A stretch of DNA of 64,000 nucleotides from Candidatus Pacearchaeota archaeon (GTDB lineage Archaea; Nanobdellota; Nanobdellia; Pacearchaeales; GW2011-AR1): assembly GCA_041660485.1 (NCBI GenBank), contig JBAZWF010000001.1, positions 474,224 to 538,223 of the forward strand. Reading direction: 5' to 3'. A program made the translations under genes and the position numbers. The notes under the pieces were generated by a model. It had not been told where the DNA came from. It made no database searches and was given only the letters and a program-made list of their open reading frames with translations. Numbering within the stretch: position 1 is the stretch's first letter; every line of letters starts with the position of its first letter. Shown here in pieces: positions 38,854 through 45,480 of this stretch.

Positions 38854-39687
38854 ATGGATCAATCAATCCCCATTAAAGAGGCATTTCAAAAAGTTAAAGA
38901 AGATGTATCAAATCTCAAATTTGAACTCTCAAGTATAAAATCTGAGCTTGATGAAATACAGCGTTCTATTTTATTACTTTTGTCATCATTAGATTCAGTT
39001 AAATATCAGCAAAAAACATTTATTCAACAAATTCAACAGACAGACAATCAGACAGACAGACAATCAGACACTTCGACACATAATCAGACACATAATTCGA
39101 CAGAAAACCCTAAAAATTCAACACTTCGACACATAAATAAGACAGAAAAAGCCTCTTCAACACATCCTTCGACACATAATTATGGCTTTCAGGACTTAAA
39201 AGGGTTAAATATCCATATTTCCACAGGAAATAGGGGGGTTTCGACAGACAGACAGACAGACAATCAGACAGACACTTCGACAGGAAATAGGGGGGTTTCG
39301 ACACATCCTTCGACACATAATTTATCCTCGACAATCAAGGAATCTACACAAATTACCTCTCCAAATCCTTTAGCTGTTCTTAATCAGCTTGATAATCTCA
39401 AAAAAGAGATACGTCTTAAATTTAAACGTCTAACTCCTCAAGAAATGCTTGTTTTTTCTTCCATATATCAATTTGAGGATCAAGGTCATCTCGTGGATTA
39501 TACCCTACTTTCAACTCATTTAAACATCTCTGAAAGCTCAATTCGAGATTATATTCAAAGACTCATAATTAAAGGAATTCCCCTCGATAAAGAGAAAATT
39601 AATAACAAAAAAATAGTTCTTCATATCTCGCAGGAATTAAGAAAACTTGCAACCCTTGATACGTTAATTAGCCTAAGAGACCTTTGA
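38854..39687 (+). CDS. coiled-coil / repeat-linker / C-terminal wHTH protein (paralog type A)
   Basis: N-terminal heptad-like 'VSNLKFELSSIKSELDEIQRSI'. Thr/His/Asn/Gln linker built from DNA repeats (TTCGACA x9, two 21-nt and two 18-nt modules). C-terminal 'LTPQEMLVFSSIY...LLSTHLNISESSIRDYIQRLIIKG'. Confidence 0.6.
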   Translation: MDQSIPIKEAFQKVKEDVSNLKFELSSIKSELDEIQRSILLLLSSLDSVKYQQKTFIQQIQQTDNQTDRQSDTSTHNQTHNSTENPKNSTLRHINKTEKASSTHPSTHNYGFQDLKGLNIHISTGNRGVSTDRQTDNQTDTSTGNRGVSTHPSTHNLSSTIKESTQITSPNPLAVLNQLDNLKKEIRLKFKRLTPQEMLVFSSIYQFEDQGHLVDYTLLSTHLNISESSIRDYIQRLIIKGIPLDKEKINNKKIVLHISQELRKLATLDTLISLRDL

Positions 39688-39951
39688 TATCTCTTCCTAA
39701 ATCGCTCTACCGAATAATTATTCCCACTACTTTTTTTATACTTTTCTCTTTTATTTTTCCAAAATTTTTCTTTGAAAACTTGGTTTTAAATTTAACTATT
39801 AATAGATTTAAATAACTTTAGCCCCTACAATCACCTCCTTTACCCACTACATCTTCTCTCTTTTTCCCCTGAGTAATTAATTTTCTTCTTTCCCCAAAGA
39901 AGTAACTAACCTCATTATCATTTATTTTTTTCTTCATTTTTGATATTTTGC

Positions 39952-40240
39952 CTCACTTTTACTTGTTCACTACATTTTTCTTGTTTTTTATCACTTTTTA
40001 ACCACTAACAAACTCTCACTTTTACGTTTTCCCCTATATTTTGCTTACATATTTTATCCTTTTTTCAGTGATCTTTTGCCTATTTAACTCTCACTTTTAC
40101 GTTTTAAGCCCATTTTTCCCCAAAAATAGCTTCTTTAACTCTCACTTTCACTGTTTTGAGCACTTTTTCCCCTATTTTTTACTCTTTTTCTCAGGTTTTA
40201 CTCTCACTTTCACTGTTTTGAGTATTTTTTCCCTCATTTC
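39952..40240. repeat. five direct copies of a CTCACTTT[T/C]AC.. unit (spacing 63/75/51/62 bp) in a pyrimidine-skewed non-coding tract
   Basis: 'ctcact' occurs at 39952, 40015, 40090, 40141 and 40203. Copies 2-3 share 'aactctcacttttacgtttt'; copies 4-5 share '[a/t]actctcactttcactgttttgag'. In addition, '[c/t][c/t]cactac' occurs at 39723, 39843 and 39966 (about 120-bp period). Confidence 0.7.
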
Positions 40241-40789
40241 TCCCGGGATATATACTCTTTTCTTTCCGCTTAGCTCCACAGACTCCTCTATTAGGCCCTC
40301 ACTTTTCTGTTTTATGCTATTTATTTGGCCTCGAATAGTTGACCGAGTTTTTCCTAACATCGCAGCTAAATCATCATAACTTAGCTTAAGATCATTGTTT
40401 GCCAATACCCATATTATTGCTCTTTCAGTTACAGATAAATTTGAAAATCCATTAAAATTACCTGTTTGAACAGCTGTTTGAACAGCTGTTTGAACACCTT
40501 CAACAGCTGTTTGTTTATGATAAACAGGCTTAGCTGTTTTAAACAGCTGCTTAGAAACATTTTCCCCATACATTGCCATAACATCTTTAAGCTGTTCAAT
40601 CTCATCTTTCATCGACGTAATATCTCCCTTAAGCTCATCTAAACGGGTGTTTAAAGTAATATCTTGGTTGTTTAAGTGAGTTACCCAAGCACCAACTTTG
40701 TCAATATCATTTTTTACGAGTTCAAAAGACCTTTTTGTCTCTTCATGCATAGAATTAAGTTCTCTTTTTTTTGAAAACCAGTTAAACAT
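40172..40789 (-). CDS. coiled-coil / repeat-linker / C-terminal wHTH protein (paralog type B)
   Basis: N-terminal 'LNTRLDELKGDITSMKDEIEQLKDV'. Linker 'QTAVEGVQTAVQTAVQT' encoded by tandem CAGCTGTTTGAA. C-terminal 'LSVTERAIIWVLA...LAAMLGKTRSTIRGQINSIKQKS'. The 3' end runs into the repeat array. Confidence 0.6.
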   Translation of the reverse strand: MFNWFSKKRELNSMHEETKRSFELVKNDIDKVGAWVTHLNNQDITLNTRLDELKGDITSMKDEIEQLKDVMAMYGENVSKQLFKTAKPVYHKQTAVEGVQTAVQTAVQTGNFNGFSNLSVTERAIIWVLANNDLKLSYDDLAAMLGKTRSTIRGQINSIKQKSEGLIEESVELSGKKRVYIPGEMREKILKTVKVRVKPEKKSKK

Positions 40790-40828
40790 ATTATTTATTG
40801 ACGGAGATACTATATAAATGTTTCGTTT

Positions 40829-40980
40829 TAAACAGCTGTTTAAACACTCATAAACACCATTTTATTAACTTAAACACCCGCCAATTTGAAAAAAACAGCT
40901 GTTTAAACACCCATAAACACCCATTTTATCGTCGATAAATTAAAAAATATCAAAAAAAACCATAAACACCCTCATTTTCA
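40829..40980. repeat. iteron-like direct repeats upstream of 40172..40789
   Basis: 'aaacagctgtttaaacac[t/c]cataaacacc[-/c]attttat' occurs at 40829 and 40893 (64-bp period), with a third 'cataaacaccctcatttt' at 40961. TAAACAC occurs 6 times in about 130 bp. Confidence 0.7.
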
Positions 40981-41280
40981 TCATTTTCTCCTCATTTTTT
41001 AACCTATTTTTGTCCATTTTTTACAATTTCCTATTTTTTCACAACCTTTTTCTAATTTTTCTTAAATTAAAAATCCTATTTTTGCCCCTTTTTAGGCCTG
41101 TCAAAACCTTTAAATATCTCAAAATCTTAGTACTTTTAGGCTAAAAAAGAGATCAAGAAACAGACTAAACTAGGGTAAGAACTCCCTTAGTTGAGGTTAG
41201 TTGAGTCTATGTTTGTTATGGGCAAAATAGTCAGCTACCTATAAATTAAGTTCACTAAAAAAATAAAAAGAGGTAAAAAA

Positions 41281-42955: not shown

Positions 42956-43630
42956 ATGATAAAAAAATTTAAAAAAGTAGTGGATAAACACCCATCTAAA
43001 CACCTGTTTAAAAGTCAAACAAATACTAAAGAAATTAAAGTAATTATTTTTGATGTTGGAGGAGTTTTGCTAAAAAGTAGAAACAAGTCTATACATGAAT
43101 ATATGTCTAAAAAATTAAAAGTTAGCTTAGAAGATTGGTTTGACTCAATTGAACAATACTGGGATGAAATGATAAAAGATGAATCAACAACTAACTATGG
43201 GTTAACCCAAATAGCAAGACATTATCATATTCCCAAGTATAAATTAGAAGCTATGTTTACTAAAGGTTTTAAAAAAATATTTAGAAAAGACTATAGAATG
43301 TTCAGACTTTTAAAAAAGCTAAAGAAAACCTATAAAATAGCTATACTTTCAGACCAGCTACTAATGTCTTATAATGCCTTTAAAAAATATAGATTTGATG
43401 AAAGAGTTGATTTAGCTATTTGGTCTCATAAAGAAGGGGTTAGAAAACCAAATATTGAAATTTATCAACTTATTGTTAAGCGCTTAAAAGTTCCTGCTGA
43501 AAGTTGTCTGTTTATTGACAACCGGGACTGGAATTTAATACCTGCAAAAAAAATTGGCATGAAGTTTATTCTTTTTCAAAATTTTAGACAGTTGTTTAAT
43601 CAGCTTAAAGTTTTGGGGGTGAAAATATGA
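42956..43630 (+). CDS. HAD-superfamily hydrolase
   Basis: Motif I variant 'IIFDVGGVL', 'ILSDQ', 'KPNIEIY', 'FIDNRDWN'. ATGA overlap with the recombinase gene. Confidence 0.7.
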   Translation: MIKKFKKVVDKHPSKHLFKSQTNTKEIKVIIFDVGGVLLKSRNKSIHEYMSKKLKVSLEDWFDSIEQYWDEMIKDESTTNYGLTQIARHYHIPKYKLEAMFTKGFKKIFRKDYRMFRLLKKLKKTYKIAILSDQLLMSYNAFKKYRFDERVDLAIWSHKEGVRKPNIEIYQLIVKRLKVPAESCLFIDNRDWNLIPAKKIGMKFILFQNFRQLFNQLKVLGVKI

Positions 43631-44379
43631 CTAACCCCTTAGCAGCAATTTATATAAGAGTTTCAACAGAAGATCAGGTAAAATTTGGAATTTCTCTAAA
43701 TGCCCAACAAGAAGCACTTGAAAACTATTGCAAAGCATTAAGCTATGATATTTTTAAGCTCTATAAAGATGAAGGAAAATCAGGCAAGGATCTCACCCAT
43801 CGCCCAGCAATGCAAGAAATGTTAAGGGATGCAGAATCTCATAAATTTCAAGCAATTTTTATTTATAAGCTTGATAGATTTTCAAGAAGTTTAATGGATT
43901 TAATAACTACAATTGACAAACTTAAAACTTTAGGGGTTGATTTTGTTTCTCTACAAGATAAACTTGAAACAACTTCTGCATCAGGTAAATTAATGTTTCA
44001 TATTATCTCTGCATTTGCAGAATTTGAAAGAAATGTTACAAGTGAAAGGACTAAGTTTACCATGTCAAAAAAAGCCCGTGATGGAAGCGTTGTAACCCGT
44101 GCACCTTTAGGCTATAAAATATCTGATAAAAAGCTAGTTCCTGCTGAAAATTCTTTTATCATCTCTGAAATTTATCATAGTTTTATTAATAACAATATAA
44201 GCCTAACTCAACTAAGCAAGAAGTATAATCTTTCTGTTAATGGGCTGAAAAAAGTTCTTACAAATCAGACATATTTAGGTAAAATAAAGTTTAGCGGAGG
44301 AATTTCCCAAGGCACTCATCCTCCTCTTCTTTCAGAAGAGCTTTTTAATAAAGTTCAGGGAAAGCTAAATAAAAGTTAA
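43627..44379 (+). CDS. serine recombinase (resolvase/invertase-type catalytic domain + C-terminal extension)
   Basis: 'AAIYIRVSTEDQ' (catalytic Ser), 'YKLDRFSRS', 'AEFERNVTSERTK'. Confidence 0.85.
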   Translation: MTNPLAAIYIRVSTEDQVKFGISLNAQQEALENYCKALSYDIFKLYKDEGKSGKDLTHRPAMQEMLRDAESHKFQAIFIYKLDRFSRSLMDLITTIDKLKTLGVDFVSLQDKLETTSASGKLMFHIISAFAEFERNVTSERTKFTMSKKARDGSVVTRAPLGYKISDKKLVPAENSFIISEIYHSFINNNISLTQLSKKYNLSVNGLKKVLTNQTYLGKIKFSGGISQGTHPPLLSEELFNKVQGKLNKS

Positions 44380-44985: not shown

Positions 44986-45480
44986 TTAAATAAAATTTAT
45001 TTTGTCTCCGATAGAAATATTATTTTTTTCAACTTCCCCTGCATTTAATTCTAAAACATATATTGTATTTTCATTTGGTTTATATATTTCACATTTACTT
45101 TCTTTACAAGGCAGAGCATTTTCTTTAATATAAACAACCTTTTTATTTTCATCAATCCAGATTATATCTAAAGCAATTAAAGTGTTTTTCATCCAGAAAT
45201 TATAAATCCCTTTATCCTCAAAAATAAACAACATGCCACTATTTTCATTTAATTTTTCTCTAAACATTAATCCTCTTTCTCTTTCAACACTTGTTTGTGC
45301 TAACTCTACCGAAAAACAACGCTGTTTGAAGCATACTTTATTTGTTTGAACAGCTGTTTGTTTAATTATTTGCCCTGTTTGAACAGCTGTTTGCTGTTTA
45401 ACTAGATTATAAACAACTAAAAATGTAATGATTATCACTAAAATTATTAATAGATAATTAATTTTATTTAATCTTTTCAT
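44986..45480 (-). CDS. DUF192 family protein with N-terminal anchor
   Basis: 'RERGLMFRE...GMLFIF......FWMKNTLIALDIIWID' pattern. The N-terminal linker carries the QTAVQT/CAGCTG repeats. Confidence 0.7.
   Translation of the reverse strand: MKRLNKINYLLIILVIIITFLVVYNLVKQQTAVQTGQIIKQTAVQTNKVCFKQRCFSVELAQTSVERERGLMFREKLNENSGMLFIFEDKGIYNFWMKNTLIALDIIWIDENKKVVYIKENALPCKESKCEIYKPNENTIYVLELNAGEVEKNNISIGDKINFI

What the first reader, a model, noticed from the sequence alone, without database searches (positions are those of the whole stretch)
39688..41100. Iteron-like direct-repeat arrays and strong pyrimidine strand skew around the wHTH gene: possible plasmid-type origin or partition site
Downstream of, and overlapping, the 3' end of 40172..40789 there are five copies of CTCACTTT[T/C]AC.. 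(39952, 40015, 40090, 40141, 40203). There is also a periodicity of about 120 bp in [c/t][c/t]cactac (39723, 39843, 39966). Upstream of the gene, a 38-39-bp unit aaacagctgtttaaacac[t/c]cataaacacc.attttat is repeated with a 64-bp period (40829, 40893), with a third half-copy at 40961. The plus strand across 39.7-40.3 kb and 40.96-41.1 kb is almost entirely T/C. Arrays of spaced direct repeats beside a winged-helix protein gene are the hallmark of iteron-type replicons and of centromere-like partition sites. The block lies only 2-4 kb from the predicted chromosomal origin and about 3 kb from a serine recombinase.
Basis: partly seen in the sequence, partly recalled or inferred. Interest (0 to 1): 0.65.

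Follow-up and report, generated by a model that had tools for sequence, protein, structure and literature searches.

The report
Conserved phased binding-site arrays near oriC
The repeats are real: they are short DNA motifs, conserved across about 80 related tiny archaea (Pacearchaeota), spaced by whole turns of the DNA helix on curved DNA around and inside the genes of two DNA-binding proteins next to the chromosome's replication origin, so they look like a chromosomal protein-docking platform, not a plasmid.

Summary
CTCACTTTYAC occurs 5 times where 0.04 are expected, the 64-bp-period units are 91% identical, and the pyrimidine skew is the strongest in the window.

The window is a Pacearchaeota (DPANN) chromosome. 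In 80 other species the 205-aa coiled-coil/winged-helix gene (p205) lies convergent with a paralogue-like gene (p277), usually 2.2-4.6 kb from orc1/oriC.

Comparison shows several motif families:
- A (AAAGTGAGRGTT) lies downstream of p205, 147 sense and 0 antisense copies. Spacings are whole helical turns (period about 10.3 bp). It sits in DNA with phased A-tracts.
- B (GSTGTTTA / AAACAGCTGTTT) forms arrays at 10-bp spacing upstream of p205.
- C, D and E are further motifs.

A, B and D also occur inside the p205 coding sequence, where synonymous codons are nearly invariant. An Orc1-type ORB is embedded in p277.

No relatives were found in plasmid or viral collections, and there is no Rep or ParA gene.

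Best reading: a chromosomal, origin-adjacent nucleoprotein platform. It is iteron-like in architecture but is not a plasmid replicon. Its exact role (origin control, origin segregation or autoregulation) is inferred, not shown.

The parts
39688..40171 (-). Convergent intergenic gap between p277 and p205. It is purine-rich on the p205-sense (-) strand, carries phased A-tracts (curved DNA), and holds motifs E, C and A.
   Evidence: Purine fraction is 0.71 here; the median is 0.688 in 81 orthologous gaps, against 0.544 for the purine-richer strand of other intergenic DNA. A-tract centre distances peak at 10, 20-21, 30-31 and 41-42 bp, with power 0.20 against at most 0.146 in matched controls.
39948..39959 (-). 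Motif A copy (degenerate: AAAGTGAGGCAA), the copy furthest from p205.
40011..40022 (-). Motif A copy (AAAGTGAGAGTT).
40086..40097 (-). Motif A copy (AAAGTGAGAGTT).
40137..40148 (-). Motif A copy (AAAGTGAGAGTT), just after the p205 stop codon.
40199..40210 (-). Motif A copy inside the p205 coding sequence (codons K194-V195-R196-V197 of the disordered basic tail).
   Evidence: V195 is GTG in 78 of 79 sequences (background 0.12) and K194 is AAA in 80 of 80. The extended flank CTMAAAAAR is shared with the intergenic copies.
40294..40305 (-). Motif A-like copy inside the p205 coding sequence (codons K162-S163-E164-G165).
   Evidence: S163 is AGT in 69 of 72 and E164 is GAG in 54 of 65 (background 0.27). 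Weaker evidence, because conserved serines tend to keep their codon family anyway.
39818..39850 (-). Two motif C copies (GTAGGGGCTAA, GTAGTGGGTAA) flanking a Shine-Dalgarno-like GGAGGTGAT (39830-39838).
   Evidence: The motif is clade-specific (the roughly 15 closest species), always on the sense strand, and copies within one genome resemble each other.
39720..39730 (-). Third motif C copy (GTAGTGGGAAT).
39695..39717 (.). Motif E (TTATTCGGT...; family consensus is the palindrome TTATTCG-N6-CGAAWAA), just after the p277 stop codon.
   Evidence: Found in 62 of 81 loci, mostly 7-50 nt from the p277 stop codon.
40172..40789 (-). p205 gene: N-terminal coiled coil, disordered (VQTx)n linker, winged helix-turn-helix, basic tail.
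40462..40513 (.). Motif B copies inside the p205 coding sequence: (CTGTTCAAACAG)n, encoding VQTAVQTAVQT.
   Evidence: TRF finds period 12 at 100% match. Codons are T=ACA (67-79 of 71-81), A=GCT (100%) and Q=CAA (97-100%) across 81 species. The segment is predicted disordered.
40610..40621 (-). Position of the coding-sequence-embedded motif D (family consensus TTA TCG TCG ATA = L-S-S-I). The window has the variant ATT ACG TCG ATG.
   Evidence: S58 is TCG in 67 of 74 and S59 is TCG in 50 of 58 (background 0.07).
40809..40831 (-). p205 promoter (conserved GAAACATTTAWATA, a TATA box about 30 nt before the ATG).
   Evidence: Conserved in the upstream sequences of the relatives. Assignment as a TATA box is inference.
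40829..40930 (.). Two motif B units (GGTGTTTATGRGTGTTTAAACAGCTGTTT) 63-64 bp apart, plus extra GSTGTTTA half-sites.
   Evidence: In the family, TGTTTR is 474 sense and 214 antisense, concentrated at -100 to -300, with spacing peaks at 10, 12-13, 20-21 and 31 bp.
40924..40940 (.). Motif D palindrome (TTTATCGTCGATAAA).
40954..41100 (-). Half-copy of the B unit (40954-40987), followed by a further purine-rich stretch on the - strand with AAAAATAGG-type repeats.
   Evidence: Only partly conserved (shared with L001).
38854..39687 (+). p277 gene: same architecture as p205 (coiled coil, low-complexity linker, winged helix).
   Evidence: The HTH cores are homologous (hhalign probability 91%).
39219..39296 (+). 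Two ORB-like (Orc1/Cdc6 origin recognition box) elements inside the p277 linker-coding DNA (39219-39239 and 39276-39296).
   Evidence: The pattern TTCCANNGGAAAYNNNGGKGT has 5 hits in 64 kb, all between 37035 and 39296, against 0.05 expected. Codons are invariant: TCC 76/76, GGG 75/76, GAC 69/69. Present in 76 of 81 loci.
37035..37388 (.). Canonical orc1-adjacent origin: ORBs at 37035(-), 37168(-) and 37368(+) around a (TA)n unwinding element at 37248-37322.

Best explanation
The repeats are sequence-specific protein-binding sites in double-stranded DNA. Together they form a conserved chromosomal platform for a protein-DNA complex beside the Orc1/Cdc6 origin of Pacearchaeota.

Layout, in the direction of p205 transcription:
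- an upstream array of motif B half-sites at about 10-bp spacing, with AAACAGCTGTTT palindromic cores and a D palindrome, at -60 to -300 of the p205 promoter;
- B, D and A copies embedded in the p205 coding sequence;
- a downstream array of 2-6 asymmetric A sites, all in one orientation and spaced by whole helical turns, within A-tract-curved DNA;
- clade-specific C sites;
- an E palindrome;
- one or two Orc1-type ORBs inside the linker-coding DNA of the convergent paralogue-like gene p277.

Inferred binders: the most likely binders of A to E are the two flanking coiled-coil/winged-helix proteins (p205, p277) and perhaps the small winged-helix protein wH87. Orc1 would bind the ORBs.

Inferred mechanism:
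1. Coiled-coil-mediated oligomers bind cooperatively on one face of the curved DNA and wrap or loop it.
2. This autoregulates p205.
3. It also acts on the neighbouring origin, either controlling firing or handling the newly replicated origin.

Shown here: the conservation, the orientation, the phasing, the curvature signal, the selection at the nucleotide level inside the coding sequences, and the chromosomal context.

Inferred only: which protein binds which motif, and the biological role. It is not a plasmid or integrated replicon.
For: Real and locus-specific
- AAAGTGAG occurs 142 times in 71 of 81 gaps, against 11 times in 632 kb elsewhere. GGTGTTTA occurs 127 times against 22.
- All 6 motif A hits in the 64-kb window lie at 40.0-41.0 kb: four intergenic/tail copies, one coding-sequence copy, and a one-mismatch hit at 40968 upstream of p205.

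Signs of a DNA-level element
- Motif A is 147 sense and 0 antisense in the gaps.
- Spacings cluster at about 42, 53, 63.5, 74, 84 and 94 bp. Best period is 10.2-10.5 bp, R = 0.51; none of 5000 jittered sets reached this; the bootstrap over loci gives a lower bound of 0.40.
- A-tracts are phased at 10.5 bp with power 0.20, against a mean of 0.073 and a maximum of 0.146 in matched intergenic controls.
- Upstream TGTTTR spacing peaks at 10, 20-21 and 31 bp.

Copies embedded in coding sequence are under nucleotide-level selection
- V195 GTG 78/79 (background 0.12).
- S58 and S59 TCG 67/74 and 50/58 (background 0.07).
- Linker codons T=ACA, A=GCT, Q=CAA nearly invariant.
- p277: TCC 76/76, GGG 75/76, GAC 69/69.
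- Five control genes show no such peaks except Ser-AGT columns.
- Two embedded motifs lie in segments AlphaFold2 predicts as disordered (residues 77-111 and 194-205). There, amino-acid conservation is otherwise unexpected.

Context
- Synteny with p277 in 80 of 80 loci and with orc1 in 50 loci at 2.2-4.6 kb.
- ORB-like sites occur only at 37.0-39.3 kb.
- There is a precedent for ORBs inside a gene next to oriC that are bound by Cdc6 (PMC1904270).
- p205 is a MarR-like winged helix with a 75-residue N-terminal helix.
- p205 and p277 share a homologous HTH core.

Not RNA, not mobile
- No Rfam hit.
- Folding of the gap RNA gives z = -1.4.
- Stop codons occur in all frames.
- No relatives in IMG/VR, PLSDB or PHROGs.
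Against: - There are no binding data of any kind, so the assignment of proteins to motifs is a guess.
- Motifs A and B are different sequences. The classical iteron/operator relation (one Rep protein, one site type) therefore does not hold.
- All A copies lie on the sense strand, within or after the p205 coding sequence. That is also what a 3'-UTR element would look like.
- In 8-10 species with about 6 kb of flanking DNA, the p205-p277 module has no orc1 nearby. Linkage to the origin is therefore frequent but not obligatory.
- Cumulative GC skew shows no inflection at 37 kb. That this origin is active rests on ORB/unwinding-element/orc1-polD synteny only.
- The species are related, so the phasing and codon statistics are not from independent samples. 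Background-like codon use in control columns and control genes argues against simple inheritance, however.
- The codon change GTT to GTC in the linker repeats correlates only weakly with the upstream motif variant (rho = 0.24).
Confidence: 0.55

Rival explanations
1. Plain transcriptional autoregulation. The arrays are operators for p205 and/or p277 that only tune expression of these two genes (and a few neighbours). They have nothing to do with replication or segregation.
For: - B arrays sit at -60 to -300 of a conserved p205 promoter and contain palindromes typical of dimeric winged-helix regulators.
- The winged helix is MarR-like.
- Further B palindromes occur near other genes upstream of p205 (51 hits), as a small regulon would show.
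- 8-10 species keep the module without orc1 nearby.
Against: - A simple operator does not explain a phased, curved array of up to 6 A sites at the 3' end of two convergent genes.
- It does not explain the embedded ORB in p277.
- It does not explain the near-universal placement 2.2-4.6 kb from orc1.
- It does not explain the one-sided distribution of B sites, 51 against 1.
Confidence: 0.2
2. A second Orc1-dependent origin, or an extended arm of oriC. The ORBs in p277 together with the adjacent curved repeat region would be where initiation or helicase loading takes place.
For: - ORB-like sites inside p277 occur in 76 of 81 species, sometimes as inverted pairs (L015, L031, L064).
- The module keeps its ORB even where orc1 is not nearby.
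- Pyrococcus has a second Cdc6-bound ORB cluster 1.5 kb from oriC (PMC1904270).
Against: - The gap is not more AT-rich than the genome (GC 0.23-0.35 against about 0.28). The orc1-adjacent region, in contrast, has a pure (TA)n unwinding element flanked by inverted ORBs.
- Motifs A to E lack the TTCC/GAA core that defines ORBs.
Confidence: 0.1
3. An RNA-level element. The purine-rich region would be a long p205 3' UTR or a separate non-coding RNA, with the repeated AAAGUGAGRGUU bound by an RNA-binding protein.
For: - All A copies are on the p205-sense strand, starting inside the coding sequence and continuing after the stop codon.
- The sense strand has few T-runs, so archaeal termination would be inefficient.
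Against: - Helical-turn quantisation of the motif spacing and 10.5-bp phasing of A-tracts are properties of double-stranded DNA, not of RNA.
- There is no Rfam family.
- There is no significant fold (z = -1.4).
- A sequence that is 70% purine cannot form extended helices.
Confidence: 0.07
4. One reading: an iteron-type plasmid replicon or partition cassette of an integrated mobile element, bounded by the serine recombinase.
For: - The architecture (direct repeats next to a winged-helix gene, palindromes at its promoter) resembles iteron plasmids.
- A serine recombinase lies 2.8 kb away, and in 35 of 81 loci within 6 kb.
Against: - The genes are core and syntenic across at least 80 species.
- There are no relatives in 2.9 million viral contigs or 72,556 plasmids.
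- There are no Rep_3, RepA or ParA/ParM/TubZ domains.
- There is no composition break and no tRNA or att-like boundary.
Confidence: 0.03
5. Decayed duplications of pieces of the p205 gene (for example remnants of repeated integration at its 3' end), with no function.
For: The downstream units translate to KVRVK-like peptides in other frames, and the upstream units to 'V*TAV'.
Against: - Neutral remnants would not keep the core motif, the orientation and the helical phasing across species whose proteins are only 51-75% identical.
- The direction of constraint is from DNA to protein, since the synonymous sites are fixed.
Confidence: 0.02

Closest known systems
Iteron arrays of theta-type plasmids (pPS10, F, P1, R6K, RK2) with their winged-helix Rep initiators (established knowledge)
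   Same: - Direct repeats in one orientation, in helical phase, on bent DNA.
- They lie next to the gene of a winged-helix protein whose promoter carries palindromic sites.
   Different: - It is chromosomal and core, not on a plasmid.
- No Rep_3/RepA-type protein.
- Repeats lie 4-9 helical turns apart rather than contiguous 19-22-bp units.
- The downstream (A) and promoter (B) motifs are unrelated sequences.
- A canonical Orc1 origin lies 2.5 kb away.
Phage lambda ori inside gene O, and cis-acting initiators with the origin in or just after their own gene, such as R1 RepA/oriR and phiX174 gene A (established knowledge)
   Same: - Binding sites lie inside the coding sequence of a DNA-binding protein, in the part that encodes a flexible linker, and directly downstream of the gene.
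- The protein sequence is therefore partly dictated by the DNA sites.
   Different: - There is no evidence that p205 or p277 initiates replication.
- Several motif families are involved rather than one.
- The element is conserved in a cellular chromosome across an order.
Centromere-like sites near their binding-protein genes: parS within spo0J and around oriC in bacteria; R1 parC/ParR (established knowledge); Sulfolobus SegB sites (PMC12284271)
   Same: - Palindromic or repeated sites clustered around, and inside, the gene of the binding protein.
- Many sites are intragenic.
- They are origin-proximal.
- Motif B forms a dispersed, one-sided cluster over about 6 kb.
   Different: - No ParA/SegA-type ATPase in the 64 kb.
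- The proteins are coiled-coil winged helices, not ParB or ribbon-helix-helix folds.
- Segregation was not tested.
Cluster of ORBs and mini-ORBs inside the dp1 gene of Pyrococcus/Thermococcales, bound by Cdc6/Orc1 (PMC1904270)
   Same: Origin recognition boxes lie inside a protein-coding gene 1.5-2 kb from oriC and are conserved in an order. This matches the ORBs found here inside p277.
   Different: - This applies to the neighbouring ORBs only. The repeats of the finding (motifs A to E) lack the TTCC/GAA ORB core.
- The host gene here is a DNA-binding protein, not a polymerase subunit.

Membership tests
Iteron-type plasmid replicon | Array of at least 3 direct repeats in one orientation and in helical phase | tested here: met
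   Five or six A copies in the window. In the family, 147 sense and 0 antisense copies with a spacing period of about 10.3 bp. The spacing is 4-9 helical turns, not the usual 2.
Iteron-type plasmid replicon | Adjacent Rep initiator of the Rep_3/RepA (WH1-WH2) type | tested here: not met
   Pfam, NCBIfam and PHROGs give only weak generic HTH hits (HTH_11, HTH_36, DnaD_N, all below their cut-offs). Foldseek best matches are MarR/MepR.
Iteron-type plasmid replicon | Resides on a plasmid or mobile element | tested here: not met
   Core synteny in 80 species. No relatives in IMG/VR or PLSDB.
Iteron-type plasmid replicon | AT-rich unwinding element next to the iterons; autonomous replication | not testable with these tools
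   The gap is no more AT-rich than the genome. Replication cannot be tested here.
Partition (centromere) cassette | Repeated binding sites next to the gene of a centromere-binding protein | tested here: inconclusive
   The arrays and two DNA-binding genes are present, but binding is not shown.
Partition (centromere) cassette | Partner NTPase (ParA/SegA, ParM or TubZ) encoded alongside | tested here: not met
   No such Pfam domain in the ten neighbouring proteins. No deviant Walker A motif (KGGxGK[ST]) in any ORF of at least 100 aa in the 64 kb.
Archaeal oriC (ORB / unwinding element / orc1) | ORB with a TTCC...GAA dyad core and a G-rich 3' part | tested here: not met
   Motifs A to E lack the core. 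The pattern TTCCANNGGAAAYNNNGGKGT hits only 37035-39296, just outside the finding. The core definition comes from PMC1904270.
Archaeal oriC (ORB / unwinding element / orc1) | Location next to orc1/cdc6 | tested here: met
   orc1 lies 2.2-4.6 kb from the p205 end in 50 loci and is absent within about 6 kb in 8-10 loci.
Autoregulatory operator of a winged-helix regulator | Palindromic or repeated sites in the regulator's own promoter region | tested here: met
   B arrays at -60 to -300 contain AAACAGCTGTTT palindromes upstream of a conserved TATA-like element. This is true for the upstream repeats only.
Structured non-coding RNA | Match to a curated family, or significant or covarying secondary structure | tested here: not met
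   No Rfam match at gathering score in 64 kb. Fold z-score is -1.4. The partner of the motif E stem shifts register between species.

The most novel reading that the evidence does not exclude
The module is a ParA-independent, centromere-like handle for the replication origin of DPANN archaea.
- The coiled-coil winged-helix paralogues p205 and p277 would coat the phased A and B arrays, including a one-sided, roughly 6-kb cluster of mostly intragenic B sites.
- The complex would cooperate with Orc1 bound at the ORB embedded in p277.
- It would couple the newly replicated origin to the division machinery, for example through the PRC-barrel protein encoded in the same operon as p277.

A corollary is that parts of both proteins (the VQTA and STGNxGVPTDRQT linkers and the KVRVK tail) are 'translated binding sites': their amino-acid sequence would be conserved because the DNA is.
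Probability: 0.2. Interest if true: 0.9.

Novelty: new variant of a known kind. Interest (0 to 1): 0.68.

Why it matters
How archaea regulate origin firing and separate their origins is largely unknown outside Sulfolobus. For the host-dependent DPANN archaea with very small genomes it is not known at all.

This locus offers a compact, conserved and directly testable system:
- two or three small DNA-binding proteins;
- five defined DNA motifs, plus an Orc1 box;
- all within 2 kb, next to the origin, and present in roughly 80 or more species.

It is also an unusually clear case of DNA-binding sites constraining protein-coding sequence. Synonymous sites are frozen across species whose proteins are only about 50% identical. 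That matters for how conserved 'disordered' peptide motifs, and dN/dS-type analyses, are interpreted.

I found no description of these arrays in the searched literature.

Tried and rejected
- Hidden gene or frameshifted extension in the gap: rejected. There are stop codons in all three minus-strand frames.
- tRNA or known RNA family: none in the window.
- Structured RNA in the gap: z = -1.4. A hairpin at motif E does not hold, because the 3' partner shifts register between species. It looks more like a TTATTCG-N6-CGAAWAA palindrome.
- Bacterial-type promoter and terminator scan: uninformative, and the wrong model for an archaeon.
- Direct BLASTP of p205 against p277: not significant. Only the profile-profile comparison shows the shared HTH.
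- PDB sequence searches with both families: only coiled-coil noise.
- Co-variation between the linker codon variant (GTT/GTC) and the upstream motif variant: weak (rho = 0.24). It does not prove that one protein reads both.
- Small start-stop ORF after the GGAGGTGAT box (ATG/TTG followed by TAG in several species): judged a by-product of the wTGTAG start of motif C.
- Motif C as a degenerate mini-ORB (shared AGTGG): rejected, because the TTCC/GAA core is missing.
- Metagenome-wide pattern scan for motif A: not run, because a 15-mer would be swamped by chance hits.
Full report
**Observation**

- CTCACTTTYAC has five exact copies (39952, 40015, 40090, 40141, 40203), all on the + strand, against 0.04 expected.
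- The upstream unit AAACAGCTGTTTAAACAC... occurs at 40830 and 40893 (91% identical over 34 nt, 63 bp apart), with a 65% half-copy at 40954. The 18-mer has 2 exact and 5 two-mismatch hits where none is expected.
- The 500-bp windows at 39.65-40.0 kb are the most pyrimidine-rich of the whole window (0.73; mean 0.525, sd 0.061). 'Almost entirely T/C' is really 63-76%.
- The '[c/t]ccactac every 120 bp' motif is real (39720, 39818, 39840). The period is not a conserved feature.

**What the surroundings are**

The window is a low-GC (about 28%) archaeal chromosome. The 205-aa protein (p205) is identical to a protein of a Candidatus Pacearchaeota genome on an 856,651-bp contig.

Genes and elements to the left of the finding:
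- orc1/cdc6 lies at 35722-36930 (Cdc6_C, Cdc6_lid, AAA), followed by the PolD small subunit.
- Between orc1 and a PRC-barrel gene there is a textbook origin. ORB-like boxes at 37035(-), 37168(-) and 37368(+) surround a (TA)n tract at 37248-37322.
- To the right run PRC-barrel, p151, a small winged-helix protein (wH87) and the 277-aa protein (p277), all on the + strand.
- p205 is convergent with them on the - strand.

The two flanking proteins:
- p205 is a 75-residue N-terminal helix, a disordered linker (residues 77-111), a winged helix-turn-helix and a disordered basic tail (AlphaFold2, pLDDT 70). Its fold neighbours are MarR/MepR-type regulators.
- p277 has the same layout. Its HTH core is homologous to that of p205 (hhalign probability 91%).

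**Comparative evidence**

p205 has more than 2600 homologues. A scan of one genome per species gave 429 relatives, of which the best 80 loci (51-75% identity) were kept.
- Synteny is strong: p277 is convergent with p205 in 80 of 80 loci, wH87 is present in 72, PRC in 61 and orc1 in 50, the last limited mainly by contig ends.
- orc1 starts 2.2-4.6 kb from the end of p205. In 8-10 loci with about 6 kb of DNA it is not nearby, yet the p205-p277-wH87 trio and its repeats persist.
- The convergent gap is purine-rich on the p205-sense strand in nearly all species: median 0.688, with 75 of 81 at or above 0.60. The purine-richer strand of 319 other intergenic segments has a median of 0.544.

**The motifs**

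Read in the p205 direction, the flanks resolve into motif families.

- Motif A, AAAGTGAGRGTT, with an A-rich 5' extension:
  - It lies downstream of p205. AAAGTGAG occurs 142 times in 71 of 81 gaps, against 11 times in 632 kb elsewhere.
  - Copies are 147 sense and 0 antisense.
  - In the 64-kb window all six hits lie at 40.0-41.0 kb.
- Motif B, GSTGTTTA half-sites and AAACAGCTGTTT palindromes:
  - It lies at -60 to -300 of the p205 start: 127 occurrences against 22 elsewhere.
  - TGTTTR is 474 sense and 214 antisense.
- Motif D, TTATCGWCGATAA, lies next to the B arrays.
- Motif C, GTAGnnnnTAA:
  - It occurs two or three times per gap in the roughly 15 closest species.
  - It is always on the sense strand, and the copies within one genome resemble each other.
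- Motif E, TTATTCG-N6-CGAAWAA, is found in 62 of 81 loci, mostly 7-50 nt from the p277 stop codon.

**DNA or RNA?**

Three results point to double-stranded DNA.
1. Successive A copies are separated by about 42, 53, 63.5, 74, 84 or 94 bp.
   - The best period is 10.2-10.5 bp (R = 0.51).
   - None of 5000 jittered data sets reached this.
   - A bootstrap over loci gives a lower bound of 0.40.
2. Runs of four or more A in the gaps are themselves phased at about 10.5 bp.
   - Centre-to-centre distances peak at 10, 20-21, 30-31 and 41-42 bp.
   - The power is 0.20. Matched samples of other intergenic DNA give a mean of 0.073 and a maximum of 0.146. The rest of the loci give 0.02-0.04.
   - This is the signature of intrinsically curved DNA.
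3. Upstream B half-sites are spaced 10, 20-21 and 31 bp apart.

Against RNA:
- There is no Rfam family.
- The gap RNA does not fold better than shuffles (z = -1.4).
- A strand that is 70% purine cannot make extended helices.
- All three frames carry stop codons.

**Motifs inside the genes**

The arrays do not stop at the gene borders. In a codon alignment of 81 p205 genes, synonymous sites are nearly frozen exactly where the coding sequence spells a flank motif:

| Residues | Codons | Motif spelled |
|---|---|---|
| K194-V195-R196-V197 | AAA (80/80), GTG (78/79, background 0.12), AGR, GTT | A |
| K162-S163-E164 | AAA, AGT (69/72), GAG (54/65) | A-like copy, 96 nt (about 9 turns) upstream of the copy above |
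| (VQTA)n linker | T=ACA, A=GCT (100%), Q=CAA (97-100%), i.e. ACAGCTGTTCAAACAGCTGTT | B |
| S58-S59 | TCG, TCG (67/74 and 50/58, background 0.07), within TTATCGTCGATA | D |
| V179-F-I | GTG, TTT, ATA | B half-site |

- The tail and the linker are predicted disordered, so their amino-acid conservation is best explained by the DNA.
- Control genes (orc1, PRC, wH87, p151, PolD small subunit) have a median divergence from background codon use of 0.04-0.10. They show no such peaks apart from a few Ser-AGT columns.

p277 shows the same effect.
- Its conserved linker peptide S-T-G-N-x-G-V-P-T-D-R-Q-T-x-x-Q-T-D is encoded by invariant codons: TCC 76/76, GGA 69/69, GGG 75/76, GTT 71/71, GAC 69/69.
- These codons spell TTCCAnnGGAAAT-N3-GGGGTT, the same box as beside orc1.
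- The pattern TTCCANNGGAAAYNNNGGKGT hits five times in 64 kb, all between 37035 and 39296. Two of the hits are inside p277, at 39219 and 39276. The expectation is 0.05.
- It is present in 76 of 81 loci.
- A precedent exists. In Pyrococcus, an ORB cluster inside the dp1 gene about 1.5 kb from oriC is bound by Cdc6/Orc1 in vivo and in vitro (PMC1904270).

**Is it a plasmid or integrated element?**

No.
- Besides the synteny, p205 has no relatives in 2.9 million viral contigs or 72,556 plasmids, and no PHROG family.
- There is no Rep-type or ParA-type protein nearby.
- There is no composition break.
- The serine recombinase is often nearby (35 of 81 loci within 6 kb), but on the variable side of p205.

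**How it most likely works**

*Shown:*
- a conserved, orientation-specific, helically phased set of motifs on curved DNA;
- the set runs through two convergent genes for coiled-coil winged-helix proteins;
- it lies next to an Orc1 origin in most species;
- nucleotide-level selection acts on the copies inside the coding sequences.

*Inferred:*
1. The motifs are bound by p205, p277 and perhaps wH87, while Orc1 binds the embedded ORB.
2. Coiled-coil-mediated oligomers bind one face of the DNA and wrap or loop it.
3. The B array autoregulates p205.
4. The whole complex acts on the origin, either regulating it or serving as a handle for the duplicated origins.

Useful analogies, none of which implies membership:
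- iteron arrays;
- lambda ori inside the linker-coding part of gene O, and cis-acting initiators whose sites lie in or just after their own gene;
- parS within spo0J;
- SegB sites, which are mostly intragenic and concentrated near segAB (PMC12284271).

Motif B fits this last picture. Outside the p205 promoter and coding sequence, B palindromes occur 51 times in 374 kb on the p205-upstream side and once in 398 kb on the origin side.

**Limits**

- There are no binding data.
- The assignment of proteins to motifs is unknown.
- The sequences are related, so the statistics are not from independent samples. The control columns and control genes argue against simple inheritance.
- GC skew does not mark the origin.
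- In a minority of species the module is not beside orc1.

**Verdict**

- The 'iteron-like' description of the architecture holds. The 'plasmid-type origin' reading does not. 'Partition site' remains open.
- I found no description of these arrays in the searched literature.
- I rate it a new variant of a known kind (phased binding-site arrays around the genes of their likely binders, beside an origin), with interest of about 0.7.

Noticed in passing
window 39219-39239 and 39276-39296 (+), inside the p277 coding sequence (38854-39687): Two Orc1/Cdc6-type ORB boxes (TTCCACAGGAAATAGGGGGGT) are embedded in the linker-coding DNA of p277. The codons are invariant across 76 species, and the peptide STGNxGVP(T/S)TDRQT looks like a 'translated ORB'. 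This resembles the ORB cluster in the Pyrococcus dp1 gene (PMC1904270).
   Followed up: yes
window 37035-37388: A canonical origin lies next to orc1 and the PolD genes: ORB-like boxes at 37035(-), 37168(-) and 37368(+) around a (TA)n tract at 37248-37322. The cumulative GC skew of the window shows no inflection there.
   Followed up: partly
window 43010, 45349 and 45382; loci L002-L079, upstream side of p205: Motif B palindromes (YAAACAGSTGTTYA) form a one-sided, dispersed and often intragenic cluster: 51 hits in 374 kb upstream of p205 against 1 hit in 398 kb on the origin side. About 40% are in or next to HAD-hydrolase and serine-recombinase genes. It is unresolved whether they belong to p205, to the recombinase, or to a small regulon.
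   Followed up: partly
window 44986-45480 (-), p164: An unrelated membrane-anchored protein carries 'KQQTAVQTGQIIKQTAVQTNK' after its transmembrane helix. This stretch is encoded by the same DNA (AAACAGCTGTTCAAACA) as the p205 linker. Homologues in L002 and L010 keep QQTPVQT. The same DNA motif seems to have been written into the linkers of different proteins.
   Followed up: partly
window 43627-44379 (+), and 35 of 81 related loci: A small serine recombinase (Resolvase plus a partial Recombinase domain, 250 aa) recurs within 6 kb upstream of p205 in many species, often after a HAD hydrolase gene that it overlaps. It lies on the side where gene content varies between species.
   Followed up: no
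window 37763-38799 (+): p277 appears to be the last gene of a conserved origin-proximal operon: PRC-barrel protein (86 aa), p151 (no family hit), wH87 (HTH_69-like), then p277. PRC-barrel proteins act in archaeal cell division in haloarchaea (bioRxiv 10.1101/2023.03.28.534520). This neighbourhood is not mentioned in that paper.
   Followed up: partly
window 37492-37546: Tandem TTTACCCCA / TTTACCTTATTTTTACCCCA repeats lie between the origin and the PRC-barrel gene. Their reverse complement, TGGGGTAAA, resembles the GTGGGTAAA end of motif C.
   Followed up: no
p205 linker codons in loci L002, L004, L005, L006, L010, L016, L017, L027, L036, L051, L053: Within a species, the three valine codons of the (VQTx)3 repeat are all GTT or all GTC. 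This is concerted change of the 12-nt repeats. It correlates only weakly with the upstream motif variant (rho = 0.24).
   Followed up: partly
window 39830-39838 (-), and the same place in L001, L002, L005, L008, L010, L012, L013: A perfect Shine-Dalgarno-like GGAGGTGAT lies between two motif C copies. It is often followed at once by ATG/TTG then TAG (a start-stop), and no ORF follows. Its meaning is unknown.
   Followed up: partly
window 39036-39102 and 39243-39274: The p277 linker is built from ACAGACAGACAATCAG / GACA tandem repeats, which encode QTD/STH-rich low-complexity peptide. The length of this region varies greatly between species; L008, for example, has three extra 23-residue repeats.
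   Followed up: no
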